Source of the DNA: Escherichia coli
Lineage (GTDB): Bacteria; Pseudomonadota; Gammaproteobacteria; Enterobacterales; Enterobacteriaceae
Length of the DNA: 64,000 bases
Direction: 5' to 3' (one strand)
NCBI RefSeq assembly: GCF_013315695.1
Contig: NZ_CP054353.1
A program made the translations under genes and the position numbers. Positions 5,581 through 24,078 of this stretch are shown here, in pieces. The first letter of the stretch is position 1. Each line of letters begins with the position of its first letter. Below the pieces are notes generated by a model. The model did not search any database, was not told the origin of the DNA, and saw nothing but the letters and a program-made list of their open reading frames with translations.

Positions 5581-6276
5581 TCAGGCGAATCCCGGCCGTA
5601 ACACAGCATCCGGATAATTCTCCGCCAGCAGTTTTTTTACCGATACCAGCAAATCATTCAGCCCATCGTCCTGCATTCCCAGTTTGATAAGCTCCTGTTC
5701 CAGTGAAAACAGGTATTGTGCATTGGTTCCCAGCGGACCGCTCGCCGCCGCAATCAACGGCGCGATGACCTGAGCACGAGTGTCAGATTCATATTCTGGA
5801 TGTCGCGGGTCCATAATAAACACAATGGCGTTTACTGTGCGTCCATCATCAAGATCAAGCTGACACCAGGTTGGCAGATAACAGCCGGTAATCATCTCAC
5901 GCTTCCACAGCAGGGTTAGTTCCTGCTCCAGCGTCTCTTCTGGCAGTCGATAGGCGACGCCTGTGGTGCGTCCGCCCTCTTTCAGTGCAAGCATTCGTCC
6001 CGGCTGGTGCGCAGTCCCGCGCCCGGCGGTCAGACGCAGGCAAAACGCGCGATGCCATCCAACCAGTGTACCGGTGCACGACTCGGTAAACTCCAGTGCC
6101 GGATTCCACATCAACGATCCATAACCGAAGATCCACACCGGTCCCTCATCAGGTCGACAAGCCAGCGTCGCCGCCAGCGAAGCCGCCCGTTGTTCTGCTG
6201 ACCATAAGAGTGATTCTTCAATGGCACCAAATGCCGTTTTACAATCGGCATTCATCAAGAAATCACGCGTTATCAC
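5581..6276 (-). CDS. chaC: Glutathione-specific gamma-glutamylcyclotransferase ChaC (GTG start inferred)
   Basis: ChaC-family sequence (WIFGYGSLMWNP); 231-aa product if started at GTG 6274-6276, the track ORF extends further upstream. Confidence 0.85.
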   Translation of the reverse strand: MITRDFLMNADCKTAFGAIEESLLWSAEQRAASLAATLACRPDEGPVWIFGYGSLMWNPALEFTESCTGTLVGWHRAFCLRLTAGRGTAHQPGRMLALKEGGRTTGVAYRLPEETLEQELTLLWKREMITGCYLPTWCQLDLDDGRTVNAIVFIMDPRHPEYESDTRAQVIAPLIAAASGPLGTNAQYLFSLEQELIKLGMQDDGLNDLLVSVKKLLAENYPDAVLRPGFA

Positions 6277-8390: not shown

Positions 8391-8438
8391 CAATTCAAGA
8401 ATAGCCGCAAAATGTTGTCCTTACAACAAGGCGGCTAT

Positions 8439-8546
8439 ATGACGCTCGCGCAGTTTGCCATGATTTTCTGGCACGATCTGGCAGCACCGATCCTGGCGGG
8501 AATTATTACCGCAGTGATTGTCAGCTGGTGGCGTAACCGGAAGTAA
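8439..8546 (+). CDS. ldr: Ldr type I toxin peptide (35 aa), copy 1
   Basis: Translates to MTLAQFAMIFWHDLAAPILAGIITAVIVSWWRNRK, matching the Ldr toxin family; too short for the ORF track. Confidence 0.85.
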   Translation: MTLAQFAMIFWHDLAAPILAGIITAVIVSWWRNRK

Positions 8547-8593
8547 GGTGAAAACGGGCGTCAGGCTGCCGTGATGGCAATATGCGCCCGAAA

Positions 8594-8633
8594 CCGGCCG
8601 CAGGGGTAACAGCCTGCGGCCCTTTTTGTCTTT
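8594..8633 (+). terminator. Intrinsic terminator of ldr copy 1
   Basis: GC stem CCGGCCGCAGG/CCTGCGGCC followed by CTTTTTGTCTTT. Confidence 0.7.
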
Positions 8634-8859
8634 ATCTCTTCTGCAAGTAAATATTGGCAACCCGAGCTGGAAGCATCATCCAGAGCACTCATGAAACGAC
8701 TGTAACAGCTGTTGAAAAACCGGAATGCACTCTTCATTGCAAACATTTCAGGGATGAAGTGAAGATGAATTGAGACGTAGTATCCACACCAAGCCGGCGT
8801 TATCCGGTGAGGCGCAATGTTGCGGGGGCTTTATCCCTGGTGGCATTGGTTGCTGGAAA

Positions 8860-8925
8860 GAGAAAACCCCCGCACGTTGAGAGGTACAACCTGACAACAG
8901 AACGGGGGCTAATCTTGAACCACAA
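8860..8925 (-). ncRNA. rdl: Putative Rdl antisense RNA, copy 2
   Basis: Same promoter/terminator architecture as copy 1 at +535 bp. Confidence 0.5.
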
Positions 8926-8973
8926 CAATTCAAGAATAGCCGCAAAATGTTGTCCTTACAACAAGGCGGCTAT

Positions 8974-9081
8974 ATGACGCTCGCGCAGTTTGCCATGATT
9001 TTCTGGCACGATCTGGCAGCACCGATCCTGGCGGGAATTATTACCGCAGTGATTGTCAGCTGGTGGCGTAACCGGAAGTAA
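8974..9081 (+). CDS. ldr: Ldr type I toxin peptide (35 aa), copy 2
   Basis: Identical 35-aa ORF to copy 1. Confidence 0.85.
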   Translation: MTLAQFAMIFWHDLAAPILAGIITAVIVSWWRNRK

Positions 9082-9128
9082 GGTGAAAACGGGCGTCAGG
9101 CTGCCGTGATGGCAATATGCGCCCGAAA

Positions 9129-20435: not shown

Positions 20436-21527
20436 ATGGGATTCAAATGCGGTATCGTCGGTTTGCCCAACGTCGGGAAATCTACCCTGTTCAACGCGCT
20501 GACCAAAGCCGGTATTGAAGCGGCCAACTTTCCATTCTGTACCATTGAGCCGAACACAGGCGTCGTACCAATGCCTGACCCTCGCCTGGATCAACTGGCT
20601 GAAATCGTAAAACCGCAGCGTACGCTTCCCACGACCATGGAATTTGTCGATATCGCCGGTCTGGTAAAAGGCGCATCGAAAGGCGAAGGTCTGGGTAACC
20701 AGTTCCTGACCAACATCCGTGAAACCGAAGCGATCGGTCACGTTGTTCGCTGCTTTGAAAATGACAACATCATTCACGTTTCCGGCAAAGTTAACCCGGC
20801 GGATGATATTGAAGTTATCAACACCGAACTGGCGCTGGCGGATCTCGACACCTGTGAACGTGCGATTCATCGCGTACAGAAGAAAGCCAAAGGTGGCGAT
20901 AAAGACGCGAAAGCTGAGCTGGCGGTCCTGGAAAAATGCCTGCCCCAGCTGGAAAACGCAGGTATGCTGCGCGCGCTGGATTTAAGCGCTGAAGAGAAAG
21001 CGGCTATTCGTTACCTGAGCTTCCTGACGCTGAAACCAACAATGTACATCGCCAACGTCAACGAAGACGGTTTTGAAAACAACCCGTATCTTGACCAGGT
21101 GCGTGAAATCGCGGCGAAAGAAGGTTCTGTTGTGGTTCCGGTTTGTGCTGCTGTTGAAGCAGACATTGCCGAACTGGACGACGAAGAACGTGACGAGTTT
21201 ATGCAGGAGCTTGGGCTGGAAGAGCCGGGCCTGAACCGTGTGATCCGTGCCGGTTATAAGCTGCTGAACCTGCAAACTTACTTCACCGCTGGGGTGAAAG
21301 AAGTACGTGCATGGACCATTCCGGTTGGTGCAACCGCGCCGCAGGCCGCTGGCAAAATCCATACTGATTTTGAAAAAGGCTTTATCCGTGCACAAACCAT
21401 CTCGTTTGAAGATTTCATCACTTACAAAGGTGAACAAGGCGCGAAAGAAGCAGGCAAAATGCGTGCAGAAGGCAAAGATTACATCGTTAAAGATGGCGAT
21501 GTAATGAACTTCCTGTTCAACGTCTAA
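20436..21527 (+). CDS. ychF: Ribosome-binding ATPase YchF (Obg-like GTPase family)
   Basis: 363 aa with P-loop GLPNVGKST and C-terminal TGS domain. Confidence 0.95.
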
Positions 21528-21559
21528 TTCCGCTAATACTACTCTGGCGGTTAATAACG

Positions 21560-21594
21560 AGCCATTATGTGAGTTGCACGTAATGGCTTTTTTA
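21560..21594 (+). terminator. Intrinsic terminator after ychF
   Basis: GCCATTA...TAATGGC hairpin followed by TTTTTT. Confidence 0.6.
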
Positions 21595-21718
21595 CGCCTG
21601 CTACGCGTCTTCTTTCAATTCTGAGTTACCAAAACTCATAATCAGACTCCTGACAATATTAACAATGCAGCTTTTATGTGATAACAATCACAGTGCATTA
21701 ACCGTTCAAGAGTTTGTC

Positions 21719-21895
21719 ATGAAAAAAACATTTACCTTCAGCCTGTTAGCAATTGTCTTTGCAAGCCTGTTGAGTGCTTGTGTTCCCCACCATCATCACC
21801 GCCACAGCGATGGCCCTCGTGGTCCTGCGCCCTCCGGTAAGCCAATGCCACCTTCAAATGGTGGACCAAATCACGGCAGTCATGGTCGCTATTAA
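21719..21895 (+). CDS. Candidate small His/Pro/Gly-rich lipoprotein (58 aa)
   Basis: MKKTFTFSLLAIVFASLLSAC signal peptide with lipobox-like LSAC, then HHHHRH and Pro/Gly-rich tail; weak RBS. Occupies the position where I recall K-12 having ycgV. Confidence 0.4.
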   Translation: MKKTFTFSLLAIVFASLLSACVPHHHHRHSDGPRGPAPSGKPMPPSNGGPNHGSHGRY

Positions 21896-21931
21896 TTAGC
21901 AATTCATAGCGGGAAAGTACATACTCTCCCG

Positions 21932-23851
21932 CTATCCACGGCGCTTAAACTGCCCTGCATCAATGCCATGTTGCTTCATTTTCCGCCACAGCGTAGTGCG
22001 GCCGATTCCAAGTAAAGCCGACATTTCCTGAATGCGACCGCCTGTGACCTGGGCTGCGTTAATAATTGCCTCTTTTTCAACTTCCGCAAATGACAGACTG
22101 GTGGAAAGACGGGTGGCGCTGACATCATCTGTCGCCTGCTCGGTAAACAGATGTTCAGGTAAATCACTGACGCGAATGCGCCCGTTATCACTACTCAGAG
22201 CAAGATTCTCGATGACGCTGTAAAGTTCAAAATCGTTGCCTGGCCATGCACAAGAAACCAGGCGAGCGAGGGCATCGTCATCAATTTTCAGCCGCGTAGA
22301 GAAGCGTTTTTCAAGGCTGCGTAATTTGTTATTCACCAGCGCCGGAATGCTGCCACGCCGCATACGCAGTGGCGGGATGGTAATTTCAAATGCATGCAGC
22401 GCGTAATACAGCTGGCGACTAAAACGATTTTGTTCCACCAGCATTGCCAGGTCCGCGGTCGTTGTGGCAATCACTTTGACATCAATGGGTATTAAACGCC
22501 GCGCATCCAGTCGCGTGATAACCCCCTGCTTGATAACCTGAAGCAAAGCAGACTGTAACTCCACCGCCAGATATTCAATCTTTTCAAGAAACAGCGTGCC
22601 GCCGTGCGCCAGTTCCAGCCGACTCAGACGACCATTTTCATTGTCCGTGCGATCGCCGCCAATAAATTCTTCCGCCAGCGCCGCATCACCATATAACTCA
22701 CAATTGACGGCGATATAAGGCCCCGCTGCACGCTCACTTTCATTATGAATTGCCTGACTTAGCAGTGCCTTGCCCACGCCCTCTTCTCCACAAAGCAGGA
22801 CAGGAAGGCTACTGCGCGCCGCCTGGCGACCAAAATGAATCAAGCGGCGGGTTTGCGGATCGTCCTGTGGCATATGAGCGAAAGTATGGCTGACTTTTCC
22901 TAATTGACTGGTCATTAACTGCCGCATCTGTTCCACAGGATGGAGCAACAAAATAAAGCTGGTTCCCTGCGTTTCTATTATCGGTTTAAGGGTTATCACC
23001 GCATCAATAAACTGGTGCTGACTTTCAAAGGTTGCTTCTACGTGTTTGAGCGGATGTGCCTGTTTTATTGCTTGTTGCAATACGGCGGGTAACGTTAAGA
23101 GTTCAGTGATCGCCCTTCCCTGACTTGCCGTCGCGTCAAGGCGCAAGACCCGCGCCGCCTGGGCATTGATAAATTGCAAATTACCCTGCTCGTCCCAGCT
23201 AATCACACCATCATCCATACTTTCTAACAGGGCATTAAGTTGATTTAAATGACGGTTAGTTTCAGCGAGCAAACTGTCCGTCAGCAGTAAATTTCCGACC
23301 TCGCGTGCGATTGCCAACGTCAACGGCAAATCAGCTGCGGTAGTTTGCTCAACCGGACACGCCAGCGCTATTGTTCCCGTCAATCGGCCCTTGCTGTCAA
23401 ACAACGGCGTTGCACAAAAGGCCCAGTTCCAGAGTGCCTGTTTGAAATGTTGATCGGCCATCGTTTTCACGGCCTGACCAGAGATAGCCGCTAATGATAG
23501 CGCACAAGTACCAATAATTCCCTCGGCGCAATACGTGCCGTCATTGAATCCCAGTGCACTTAGCTGCTGCAAGGTTTGCGGATCGCCATTACGGCTGAGA
23601 ATGCAGGCGGTTTCATCGAGGATAAGCAACGCACACTCTCGCGGTGCCATATATTCCCAGGCATCTTCCAGCGCAGCCTGCCCGAGCGTCAGCATCGCTT
23701 TCTTACGCCGATAAATAGAAGCAAATGTCACGCCCTGGGCCTGGTGTGGTACGTTCCATGTCTCCCGTTTCATCAGCTTAATGCATCGCTCCCAGGAGGT
23801 TGCAATTAAGGGAGATATGTCCCGACCATCGTTGTTAAAAGCGCCACTCAT
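21932..23851 (-). CDS. dhaR: Dihydroxyacetone kinase operon transcriptional activator DhaR
   Basis: 639 aa from MSGAFNNDGRD; GAF/PAS sensory region, AAA+ sigma54-interaction-like core (LLCGEEGVGKA), C-terminal HTH. Confidence 0.9.
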   Translation of the reverse strand: MSGAFNNDGRDISPLIATSWERCIKLMKRETWNVPHQAQGVTFASIYRRKKAMLTLGQAALEDAWEYMAPRECALLILDETACILSRNGDPQTLQQLSALGFNDGTYCAEGIIGTCALSLAAISGQAVKTMADQHFKQALWNWAFCATPLFDSKGRLTGTIALACPVEQTTAADLPLTLAIAREVGNLLLTDSLLAETNRHLNQLNALLESMDDGVISWDEQGNLQFINAQAARVLRLDATASQGRAITELLTLPAVLQQAIKQAHPLKHVEATFESQHQFIDAVITLKPIIETQGTSFILLLHPVEQMRQLMTSQLGKVSHTFAHMPQDDPQTRRLIHFGRQAARSSLPVLLCGEEGVGKALLSQAIHNESERAAGPYIAVNCELYGDAALAEEFIGGDRTDNENGRLSRLELAHGGTLFLEKIEYLAVELQSALLQVIKQGVITRLDARRLIPIDVKVIATTTADLAMLVEQNRFSRQLYYALHAFEITIPPLRMRRGSIPALVNNKLRSLEKRFSTRLKIDDDALARLVSCAWPGNDFELYSVIENLALSSDNGRIRVSDLPEHLFTEQATDDVSATRLSTSLSFAEVEKEAIINAAQVTGGRIQEMSALLGIGRTTLWRKMKQHGIDAGQFKRRG

Positions 23852-24078
23852 ATCCCGCATCCCTTATGACAAAAGGTGTTCCGGCTCGCAATTTTAAGTA
23901 TTAATACACGTAAAAGTTTCAATATGGAACATTCATTAAAGAATATGTTTCACTATGAAACATAATTTGGGCTAATTTTCTTTTCCCTTGCCTGATGCAC
24001 AATGGATTCATCGGCAGTCAGTGGTCGCCGTGTCGTTGAACATCATCCATGCCCTACCGTAATTGCTGGAGCAAAATA

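What the first reader, a model, noticed from the sequence alone, without database searches (positions are those of the whole stretch)
21528..21931. ychF-dhaR interval lacks an autotransporter gene and holds only a small His-rich lipoprotein candidate
From memory, K-12 has the large autotransporter gene ycgV between ychF and dhaR. Here the gap is about 400 bp and contains only a 58-codon ORF with a lipoprotein-type signal peptide (lipobox-like LSAC) followed by HHHHRH and a Pro/Gly-rich tail. A His-rich periplasmic lipopeptide could bind metal, or the ORF may be spurious.
Basis: partly seen in the sequence, partly recalled or inferred. Interest (0 to 1): 0.4.

Follow-up and report, generated by a model that had tools for sequence, protein, structure and literature searches.

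The report
Conserved orphan lipoprotein gene beside ychF
In this E. coli strain the ychF-dhaR gap is the older, unoccupied form of a variable site; it holds a small, uncharacterised His-rich lipoprotein gene that K-12 and most other E. coli lost when the ycgV autotransporter segment replaced it.

Summary
The ychF-dhaR interval is 404 bp (21528-21931). It holds one 58-codon ORF (21719-21895, +) with a canonical lipobox (LSA|C) and an HHHHRH run. K-12 has a 3.7-kb segment with ycgV at this position.

The interpretation needs revising in two ways.

1. This is probably not a loss of ycgV. The two states are close to mutually exclusive alleles among 5,426 complete E. coli genomes. About 72% carry the ycgV segment and 24% carry the small-ORF segment; 13% have exactly this short interval. 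Escherichia marmotae has the same short interval with the ORF. E. albertii and another Escherichia species share the window-type ychF terminator and have no ycgV. The last 12 nt of ychF form an island attachment site, which is occupied in ST131 by a 26-kb integrase/retron/defence island. The ychF-proximal end of K-12's ycgV segment resembles that island's end.

2. The ORF is not spurious. Against E. marmotae it shows 9 synonymous and 1 non-synonymous change (dN/dS 0.03, p about 1e-5) plus an in-frame 6-nt indel. The 49 nt upstream of the ATG are invariant and contain a perfect CRP-type palindrome.

The gene is Escherichia-restricted, has no detectable homologues, and is annotated only as "hypothetical protein". 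Metal binding is untested. Interest is modest.

The parts
20436..21527 (+). ychF (redox-regulated ATPase), left border of the interval
   Evidence: ORF list; annotated as ychF in a 100%-identical genome.
21516..21527 (+). TTCAACGTCTAA, the last 12 nt of ychF. This is the unoccupied attachment site (attB core) for integrase islands.
   Evidence: The same 12 nt flank a 26,059-bp island as a direct repeat in ST131 EC958. Other island types abut the same point.
21559..21595 (+). ychF intrinsic terminator: a 13-bp-stem hairpin followed by UUUUUU
   Evidence: Fold energy -18.3 kcal/mol, z = -4.1. The hairpin is conserved in E. marmotae, E. albertii and L080 but is replaced by a different hairpin in K-12.
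21659..21688 (+). Promoter-like site TTAACA-18-AACAAT. This is a weak consensus match only.
   Evidence: 9 of 12 positions match, and such matches are no more frequent here than in shuffles. It lies largely in the invariant block.
21670..21718 (+). 49-nt block upstream of the ATG that is invariant between E. coli alleles and E. marmotae; presumed promoter/operator/5' UTR
   Evidence: Alignment. The whole ychF-ORF spacer is 10.6% divergent and its ychF-proximal part about 14%, so about 5 differences are expected in 49 nt and none is seen.
21677..21692 (.). TGTGATAACAATCACA, a perfect CRP-core palindrome (TGTGA-N6-TCACA) overlapping the predicted -10
   Evidence: It is the only match in the 64-kb window; 0.10 are expected by chance. 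It is invariant in E. marmotae. Binding was not tested.
21708..21712 (+). Weak Shine-Dalgarno-like AAGAG, 6 nt before the ATG
   Evidence: Read from the sequence. The duplex with the anti-SD is only -2.4 kcal/mol.
21719..21895 (+). Small ORF of 58 codons plus stop, identical to RefSeq WP_001311636.1. Signal peptide 21719-21778; lipobox Cys21 codon 21779-21781; HHHHRH 21788-21805.
   Evidence: dN/dS is 0.03 against E. marmotae and 0.11 against the SCU-306 allele. The lipobox rule is met. The AlphaFold model shows only helix 3-21, and the rest has no secondary structure.
21906..21935 (.). Hairpin shared by the 3' ends of the small ORF and dhaR. It has no U-run on either strand and overlaps the dhaR stop codon.
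   Evidence: Fold energy -16.2 kcal/mol on the plus strand (z = -4.8) and -20.4 kcal/mol on the minus strand (z = -6.3). The 3' half is conserved in E. albertii.
21932..23860 (-). dhaR, right border of the interval. The annotated 639-aa form starts at 23851.

Best explanation
The window shows the unoccupied, probably ancestral form of a polymorphic site just downstream of ychF. It holds a genuine, Escherichia-restricted small gene.

Shown:
- The 58-codon ORF is under purifying selection in its own frame.
- It is syntenic in E. coli and E. marmotae.
- It is preceded by an invariant 49-nt block.

Inferred from sequence rules:
- The product is a prolipoprotein.
- It is exported by Sec, diacylglycerylated on Cys21 by Lgt, cleaved by LspA after Ala20, and N-acylated by Lnt.
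- With Val at +2 (no Asp retention signal), Lol sorts it to the inner leaflet of the outer membrane.
- The mature 38-residue chain (CVPHHHHRH...GSHGRY) is disordered, basic and Pro/Gly/His-rich, with a His cluster 3-8 residues from the lipid anchor.

Speculative:
- The His cluster binds divalent metal (Ni, Zn or Cu) or titrates with pH at the periplasmic face of the outer membrane.
- Expression is modulated by cAMP-CRP through the palindrome that overlaps the predicted -10.

In about 72% of E. coli, including K-12, the whole interval and the last dhaR codon were replaced by a 3.7-kb ycgV-bearing segment. That segment's ychF-proximal end resembles an integrase island end, so K-12 lacks this gene.
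For: Real gene:
- Window versus E. marmotae gives 9 synonymous and 1 non-synonymous substitution. Nine of the 10 differences fall at codon position 3, dN/dS is 0.03, and Fisher p = 8e-6.
- The 6-nt indel is in frame.
- All other frames are either closed or show dN/dS above 2.
- Against the SCU-306 allele the counts are 8 synonymous and 3 non-synonymous.
- The ORF pS (0.23) lies between those of ychF (0.20) and dhaR (0.39), which fits vertical descent with its neighbours.
- ORF GC is 0.51, like the flanking genes, against 0.39 for the upstream spacer.
- RefSeq annotates the identical protein as WP_001311636.1 in many genomes.

Lipoprotein:
- The lipobox rule is met.
- UniProt labels the E. marmotae orthologue 'Lipoprotein'.
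- The structure model shows a signal-peptide helix and an otherwise unstructured chain.

Regulation:
- A 49-nt invariant block and a unique perfect CRP core lie upstream.

Locus history:
- 3,931 of 5,426 genomes carry the ycgV segment, 1,296 carry the small-ORF segment and 690 have the contiguous short interval.
- At most 6 records hold two places, so the two states almost never coexist.
- E. marmotae has the same short interval.
- E. albertii and L080 share the window-type ychF terminator and have no ycgV.
- A 12-bp direct repeat flanks the 26-kb island in EC958.
- The K-12 segment's first 128 nt (20 nt of ychF plus about 108 nt downstream) are 87.7% identical to that island's end.
Against: - No transcript, ribosome-profiling or peptide evidence was available, and no paper mentions the protein.
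- The Shine-Dalgarno match is weak, and the promoter match is no better than chance.
- The selection statistics rest on 10-11 substitutions in a 177-nt ORF.
- One lineage (P0003/P0007, next to a helicase island) shows 4 non-synonymous and 0 synonymous changes plus a frameshifted variant. Scattered frameshift variants also exist, so the gene is dispensable in some backgrounds.
- E. albertii and L080 lack the ORF with no clear remnant, so 'ancestral' holds for the short interval but not necessarily for the ORF.
- The CRP site lies 34.5 nt before the ATG, which fits no standard activating geometry for this ORF.
- Metal binding is inferred from composition only.
- No integrase remnant is found in K-12, so the island origin of the ycgV segment rests on about 108 bp of similarity.
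Confidence: 0.7

Rival explanations
1. The ORF is a chance open frame in an intergenic spacer. Its conservation reflects cis-acting DNA or RNA elements such as terminators, a CRP operator or an unannotated sRNA, not a protein.
For: The Shine-Dalgarno match is weak. PGAP does not call the ORF in the 100%-identical genome MS 21-1 or in AR_0013. There is no family hit in Pfam or NCBIfam. Strong hairpins and a conserved palindrome sit in the interval.
Against: Nine of 10 substitutions against E. marmotae fall on third codon positions of this frame and are synonymous. The indel is a multiple of 3. The only other frame with a similar ratio, antisense with third positions aligned, carries 6-7 stop codons. 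Rfam finds nothing. The 5' region does not fold better than shuffled sequence (z = -0.1).
Confidence: 0.1
2. The ORF is leftover DNA. It could be a remnant of a degraded ycgV-like autotransporter gene or of the right end of an old island at the ychF attachment site. In that case it either acquired a start codon by chance (birth from wreckage) or is decaying.
For: The ORF lies 190 bp from the attachment site. Strain HH45 carries a mosaic in which ycgV fragments abut a small-ORF-like sequence. A 57-bp stretch inside that copy is 90% identical to ycgV. A comparison of the window ORF centre with that ycgV stretch, restricted to that region, gives z = 3.6.
Against: An unrestricted comparison of the window ORF with ycgV is at chance level. 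The rest of the ORF matches no ycgV allele in 5,426 genomes. HH45 is a single genome. Purifying selection and E. marmotae synteny show the ORF is maintained, whatever its origin. There is no phage hit.
Confidence: 0.1
3. The product is made but is not a lipoprotein. The N-terminal helix could stay uncleaved as a membrane anchor (a small inner-membrane protein) or be cleaved by signal peptidase I.
For: Many small E. coli proteins are single-helix membrane proteins (established knowledge). Lipidation was not tested. The model shows one long helix, residues 3-21.
Against: The LSA|C motif, with Cys at position 21 after an uncharged 15-residue core and MKK at the N-terminus, meets every element of the lipobox rule. 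The lipobox Cys21 codon is unchanged in all seven loci compared. The LSAC motif is retained in every protein variant retrieved, including the frameshifted ones.
Confidence: 0.12
4. It is a domesticated phage-type outer-membrane spanin subunit (Rz1-like): a very small, proline-rich outer-membrane lipoprotein.
For: Its size (58 aa precursor, 38 aa mature) and Pro content (8 of 38) resemble lambda Rz1 (established knowledge). It gives a marginal PHROG hit (phrog_542, E = 0.0024, function unknown). It is adjacent to an island attachment site.
Against: There is no partner inner-membrane spanin, holin or endolysin nearby. There is no periplasmic Cys for the disulfide that Rz1 needs. There is no tblastn match in 50,697 phage records. 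The PHROG hit spans mainly the signal peptide and is annotated with no function.
Confidence: 0.03

Closest known systems
RefSeq WP_001311636.1 'hypothetical protein' (E. coli) and UniProt A0A2B7MPJ6 'Lipoprotein' (E. marmotae)
   Same: WP_001311636.1 is the identical 58-aa sequence. The E. marmotae entry is the 60-aa orthologue at the same locus.
   Different: Nothing differs: this is the same gene. It has only automatic annotation, and no paper in the library mentions it.
LptM (YifL), a small disordered outer-membrane lipoprotein that assists LptD maturation
   Same: Both are short prolipoproteins with a Pro-rich, unstructured mature part. The signal peptide and lipobox align weakly (NF047847).
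   Different: The score is 13.9 bits against a cut-off of 27.7 and covers residues 1-21 only. The conserved LptM mature motif is absent, and LptM has no His cluster.
YcgV, the AIDA/Ag43-group autotransporter adhesin of K-12
   Same: It occupies the same chromosomal slot between ychF and dhaR, on the same strand. Published work links it to biofilm formation (PMC9289746).
   Different: It is a 955-aa passenger plus beta-barrel protein. It has no significant similarity to the small ORF. The two are alternative, near mutually exclusive contents of the site.
His-rich periplasmic or envelope metal binders (for example ZraP, SilE/PcoE, the His-rich loop of ZnuA, pneumococcal Pht lipoproteins)
   Same: The composition is similar: clustered His in an envelope-exposed, flexible segment. 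This comparison rests on established knowledge, not on a test here.
   Different: There is no sequence homology. The protein is far smaller, and its metal binding is untested.
Integrase islands inserted at the 3' end of a housekeeping gene (P4-like integrase type)
   Same: A 12-bp direct repeat of the ychF 3' end flanks a 26-kb island with a tyrosine integrase next to ychF in EC958.
   Different: The window contains only the single, unoccupied copy of the site.

Membership tests
Bacterial lipoprotein precursor (Lgt/LspA substrate; PROSITE PS00013/PS51257 rule) | Lys or Arg within the first 7 residues | tested here: met
   K2 and K3.
Bacterial lipoprotein precursor (Lgt/LspA substrate; PROSITE PS00013/PS51257 rule) | Uncharged hydrophobic core followed by the lipobox [LVI][ASTVI][GAS]C, with Cys at position 15-35 | tested here: met
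   The regex {DERK}(6)-[LIVMFWSTAG](2)-[LIVMFYSTAGCQ]-[AGS]-C matches AIVFASLLSAC at residues 11-21.
Bacterial lipoprotein precursor (Lgt/LspA substrate; PROSITE PS00013/PS51257 rule) | Actual diacylglyceryl modification and LspA cleavage | not testable with these tools
   Needs globomycin and palmitate-labelling experiments.
LptM (NCBIfam NF047847) | HMM score at or above the curated cut-off of 27.7 bits | tested here: not met
   13.9 bits, E = 0.045, residues 1-21 only.
Pfam families, including DUF6769, colicin lysis proteins and entericidins | Any Pfam-A hit at or above its gathering score | tested here: not met
   The only hit is DUF6769 at 14.6 bits against a gathering score of 27.
YcgV / AIDA-type autotransporter | Passenger and beta-barrel coding sequence present in the ychF-dhaR interval | tested here: not met
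   tblastn of K-12 YcgV finds nothing in 21528-21931. The only window hit is a weak one at 61672-62316.
Phage o-spanin (Rz1-like) | A small Pro-rich outer-membrane lipoprotein encoded with, or inside, an i-spanin gene in a lysis cassette | tested here: not met
   The lipobox and Pro-richness are present, but there is no neighbouring lysis gene and no phage match. phrog_542 has E = 0.0024 and unknown function.
CRP-binding site | TGTGA-N6-TCACA core | tested here: met
   Perfect core at 21677-21692. It is the only one in 64 kb, where 0.10 are expected.
CRP-binding site | cAMP-CRP binding and an effect on transcription | not testable with these tools
   Needs EMSA, ChIP or a reporter assay in a crp mutant.
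Unoccupied integrase attachment site (attB) | The same short sequence flanks the island as a direct repeat in occupied genomes and is single-copy here | tested here: met
   TTCAACGTCTAA flanks the 26,059-bp island in EC958. A single copy is present at 21516-21527 in the window.

The most novel reading that the evidence does not exclude
The gene encodes an Escherichia-restricted orphan outer-membrane lipopeptide. Its membrane-proximal His cluster binds Ni, Zn or Cu, or senses periplasmic pH. It is controlled by cAMP-CRP. Most E. coli lineages, including every common laboratory strain, lost it when the ycgV segment replaced it, which would explain why it has never been studied. A more speculative extension is that the ORF arose from the wreckage of an autotransporter gene, as the HH45 mosaic hints.
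Probability: 0.15. Interest if true: 0.5.

Novelty: new member of a known kind. Interest (0 to 1): 0.3.

Why it matters
The finding shows that a gene absent from K-12 is not automatically spurious. About a quarter of complete E. coli genomes carry the gene, including the pandemic ST131 lineage, and so does E. marmotae. It is a selected envelope lipopeptide gene with no family, no literature and inconsistent annotation. It is a cheap target for small-protein work: tagging, globomycin treatment and metal-binding assays.

The locus also illustrates how a housekeeping-gene 3' end (ychF) serves as a landing site for defence islands and probably for the ycgV adhesin segment. This reframes 'ycgV absent' in virulence-gene surveys as the unoccupied or ancestral state and not as a deletion.

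None of this overturns current understanding.

Tried and rejected
- **Family searches.** Pfam, NCBIfam and PHROGs gave only sub-threshold hits, driven mainly by the signal peptide.
- **Homologue searches.** The word-indexed search of 5.8 billion proteins and the exhaustive HMMER search of 1.84 billion representatives found only the gene's own near-identical family. One further hit was a spurious tandem-repeat translation, P0027.
- **Mobile elements.** tblastn against phages found nothing. Plasmid hits were only large non-mobilizable E. coli records.
- **Rfam.** No match in the interval.
- **Genome-contig scan.** Most of the 120 loci were irrelevant; only E. albertii (L021) and L080 were useful. 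E. fergusonii and other Escherichia species were therefore not sampled.
- **Small ORF derived from ycgV.** Direct similarity is at chance level. The idea rests only on the single HH45 mosaic, so I kept it as a low-probability rival.
- **ORF remnants in E. albertii and L080.** None were convincing.
- **Integrase remnants in K-12.** None were found.
- **Terminator scan.** The consensus scan missed both hairpins, and folding was needed to show them.
- **Literature.** Searches by accession and by peptide string found nothing.

Full report
**1. What is in the sequence**

ychF occupies 20436-21527 (+), and dhaR occupies 21932-23860 (-; the annotated 639-aa form starts at 23851). The interval between them is 404 bp, exactly the coordinates in the finding.

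The interval contains the following features, in order:
- a strong ychF terminator hairpin with a U-run at 21559-21595 (-18.3 kcal/mol, z = -4.1);
- an AT-rich spacer with GC 0.39;
- a 58-codon ORF at 21719-21895 (+);
- a hairpin at 21906-21935 shared by the two convergent 3' ends.

The ORF product is MKKTFTFSLLAIVFASLLSAC|VPHHHHRHSDGPRGPAPSGKPMPPSNGGPNHGSHGRY. It meets every element of the PROSITE-type lipobox rule: K2/K3, an uncharged core, LSAC, and Cys at position 21. The mature 38 residues contain 8 Pro, 7 His and 7 Gly.

An AlphaFold model shows only the signal-peptide helix (residues 3-21). The rest has no secondary structure, with pLDDT of about 58-66.

**2. Comparison with K-12 and other E. 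coli**

The window is E. coli and is 100% identical over the test stretch to strain MS 21-1. K-12 MG1655 has ycgV (2,868 bp, same strand as ychF) in a 3,735-bp ychF-dhaR interval.

Homology between K-12 and the window stops 2 nt after the ychF stop codon and resumes 7 nt inside dhaR. The K-12 segment therefore replaces the entire interval. The last DhaR residue also differs: Val in K-12, Gly here. K-12 has no trace of the small ORF.

Counts among 5,426 complete E. coli genomes:

| State | Genomes | Share |
|---|---|---|
| K-12-type ycgV segment | 3,931 | 72% |
| Small-ORF segment | 1,296 | 24% |
| Uninterrupted short interval, as in the window | 690 | 13% |

In a sensitive search, 5,379 genomes had one or the other state and at most six records had two places. 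The two states are therefore effectively mutually exclusive.

**3. The site is an island landing pad**

In the roughly 600 genomes that have the small ORF but not the short interval, extra DNA sits between the ychF stop codon and the ychF terminator.

In ST131 strain EC958 this DNA is a 26,059-bp island. It carries a tyrosine integrase next to ychF, a retron Ec67-family reverse transcriptase, ABC-three-component genes, IS remnants and other genes. It is flanked by a 12-bp direct repeat, TTCAACGTCTAA, which is the last 12 nt of ychF. A different cargo (an HTH protein plus a DEAD/ResIII helicase) abuts the same point in other assemblies. The window holds the single, unoccupied copy of the repeat at 21516-21527.

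The first 128 nt of the K-12 comparison segment comprise 20 nt of ychF and about 108 nt downstream of it. They are 87.7% identical to the ychF-proximal end of the EC958 island. This suggests that the ycgV segment is a decayed relative of such an island whose far end, with the small ORF, was deleted. No integrase remnant survives in K-12, so this step is an inference.

**4. Which state is older**

E. marmotae genomes have the same short ychF - small ORF - dhaR arrangement, with a 60-aa orthologue. E. albertii has a 166-bp interval. A further Escherichia species representative (L080) has an 88-bp interval. Its dhaR is as far from the window's dhaR as the E. marmotae dhaR is (pS 0.41).

Both lack ycgV and both share the window-type ychF terminator hairpin. 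E. albertii also shares part of the dhaR-proximal hairpin. K-12 has a different hairpin after ychF.

The short, ycgV-free interval is therefore the ancestral type. Neither E. albertii nor L080 has the ORF or a convincing remnant of it. The ORF is at least as old as the E. coli - E. marmotae split, unless it was exchanged between them. Its presence in the genus ancestor is open.

Synonymous divergence from E. marmotae is 0.23 for the ORF, between 0.20 for ychF and 0.39 for dhaR. This fits vertical descent.

**5. Is the ORF a gene?**

- Against E. marmotae there are 10 substitutions. Nine are at third codon positions and synonymous, and one is P37A. There is also a 6-nt in-frame insertion.
- Nei-Gojobori dN/dS is 0.03. 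The binomial p is 1.7e-5 and the Fisher p is 8e-6.
- Against the divergent E. coli allele in SCU-306 (93.8% nucleotide identity; an allele class at this identity was seen in 124 genomes) there are 8 synonymous and 3 non-synonymous changes, dN/dS 0.11.
- Among the other five frames, only the antisense frame whose third positions coincide gives a similar ratio, and it has 6-7 stop codons.
- The 49 nt before the ATG and the first 41 nt of the ORF are invariant between the window and E. marmotae, whereas the whole ychF-ORF spacer differs by 10.6% and its ychF-proximal part by about 14%.
- The upstream in-frame ATG at 21665 that the ORF listing uses is not conserved (ATA in E. marmotae), so 21719 is the start.

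Weak points:
- The Shine-Dalgarno match is poor (AAGAG, -2.4 kcal/mol).
- The promoter-like match (TTAACA-18-AACAAT) is no better than chance.
- PGAP annotates the ORF in most carriers as WP_001311636.1 but omits it in MS 21-1 and AR_0013.
- One lineage shows 4 non-synonymous and 0 synonymous changes plus a frameshifted variant. Rare frameshift variants also exist, which indicates dispensability in some backgrounds.

I rate 'real, selected protein-coding gene' at about 0.85 and 'lipoprotein' at about 0.75.

**6. Regulation**

The invariant block contains TGTGATAACAATCACA (21677-21692). This is a perfect CRP core and the only one in the 64-kb window, where 0.10 are expected by chance.

Its centre lies 34.5 nt before the ATG and overlaps the predicted -10. 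This fits repression or some other non-classical role better than class I or class II activation of this ORF. The 5' region has no significant RNA structure, and Rfam finds nothing. CRP control is an inference.

**7. Relatives**

There are no relatives outside the gene's own family:
- Pfam, NCBIfam and PHROGs give only sub-threshold, signal-peptide-driven hits: LptM 13.9 bits against a 27.7 cut-off, DUF6769 14.6 against 27, and phrog_542 at E = 0.0024 with unknown function.
- The word-indexed search and the exhaustive HMMER scan of 1.84 billion representatives return only E. coli and E. marmotae variants, plus one spurious repeat protein.
- There are no phage matches.
- No paper mentions the accession or the peptide.

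The gene is a taxonomically restricted orphan. By architecture it resembles small disordered outer-membrane lipoproteins such as LptM or the phage Rz1 spanin subunit. By composition it resembles His-rich envelope metal binders. It fails the membership tests for each of those I could test.

**8. Mechanism**

- *Shown:* selection on the frame, the lipobox, synteny, and the conserved upstream block.
- *Inferred from established lipoprotein biogenesis rules:* Sec export; Lgt, LspA and Lnt processing at Cys21; and Lol sorting to the outer membrane, because residue +2 is Val and not Asp.
- *Speculative:* the His cluster next to the lipid anchor binds Ni, Zn or Cu or responds to pH, and CRP modulates expression.

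**9. An unexplained item**

Strain HH45 is unique among the 5,426 genomes. It has K-12-type flanks, two ycgV fragments and a frameshifted small-ORF-like copy that is 83% identical to the window. The central 57 bp of that copy are instead 90% identical to an internal part of ycgV.

Direct similarity between the window ORF and ycgV is at chance level. A comparison restricted to that region gives z = 3.6. A recombination mosaic is the simpler reading. A shared origin of the ORF and ycgV is not excluded.

**10. Verdict**

The locus polymorphism and ycgV's variable presence are known in kind; ycgV is treated as an accessory biofilm-associated autotransporter in PMC9289746 and PMC10210957.

The small gene is already in databases as a hypothetical protein. 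What this work adds is:
- evidence that the gene is real and under selection;
- evidence that the short interval is the unoccupied, older state;
- the finding that the ychF 3' end is an island attachment site.

Interest is modest.

Noticed in passing
window 21516-21527; L008 (EC958); L002; L133/L134: The last 12 nt of ychF (TTCAACGTCTAA) act as an attachment site. A 26,059-bp integrase island carrying a retron Ec67-family RT and ABC-three-component defence genes is flanked by this repeat in ST131 EC958. A different HTH plus DEAD/ResIII helicase cargo sits at the same point in other assemblies.
   Followed up: partly
L004 (K-12) 8613-8740 versus the EC958 island end: The first 128 nt of the K-12 comparison segment (20 nt of ychF plus about 108 nt downstream) are 87.7% identical to the ychF-proximal end of the EC958 island. 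This hints that the ycgV segment is a decayed island. No integrase remnant was found in K-12.
   Followed up: partly
L005 (strain HH45) 5733-6271: A one-off mosaic. It has K-12-type flanks, ycgV fragments and a frameshifted small-ORF-like copy (83% identical to the window) with a 57-bp ycgV-like patch inside it. It is unique among 5,426 genomes and its origin is unresolved.
   Followed up: partly
window 21677-21692: This is the only perfect TGTGA-N6-TCACA (CRP core) in the 64-kb window. It is invariant in E. marmotae. Its position does not fit standard activation geometry for the small ORF.
   Followed up: partly
window about 29,500-36,000: An iron ABC transporter, TonB-dependent receptor, ModD and methyltransferase cluster lies between treA and ymgE. 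Its substrate-binding gene is annotated as a pseudogene (internal stop) in the matching genome MS 21-1.
   Followed up: no
window about 8,400-9,100: Two tandem Ldr-family type I toxin genes lie between kdsA and chaA, according to the annotation of the matching genome.
   Followed up: no
window about 52,800-54,800: ISEc53 (ISL3-like) and IS1A copies sit side by side between hlyE and a ClbS/DfsB-family gene next to umuDC.
   Followed up: no
window about 61,600-64,000: An autotransporter beta-barrel pseudogene fragment and an 'ECIAI39_1904 family autotransporter adhesin' gene that runs off the window end. K-12 YcgV gives a weak tblastn hit at 61672-62316 (27% identity).
   Followed up: no
window 21719-21895 versus NZ_CP146670.1 and NZ_CP032204.1: Annotation is inconsistent. 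PGAP calls the identical ORF as WP_001311636.1 in most carrier genomes but leaves it unannotated in the 100%-identical genomes MS 21-1 and AR_0013.
   Followed up: yes
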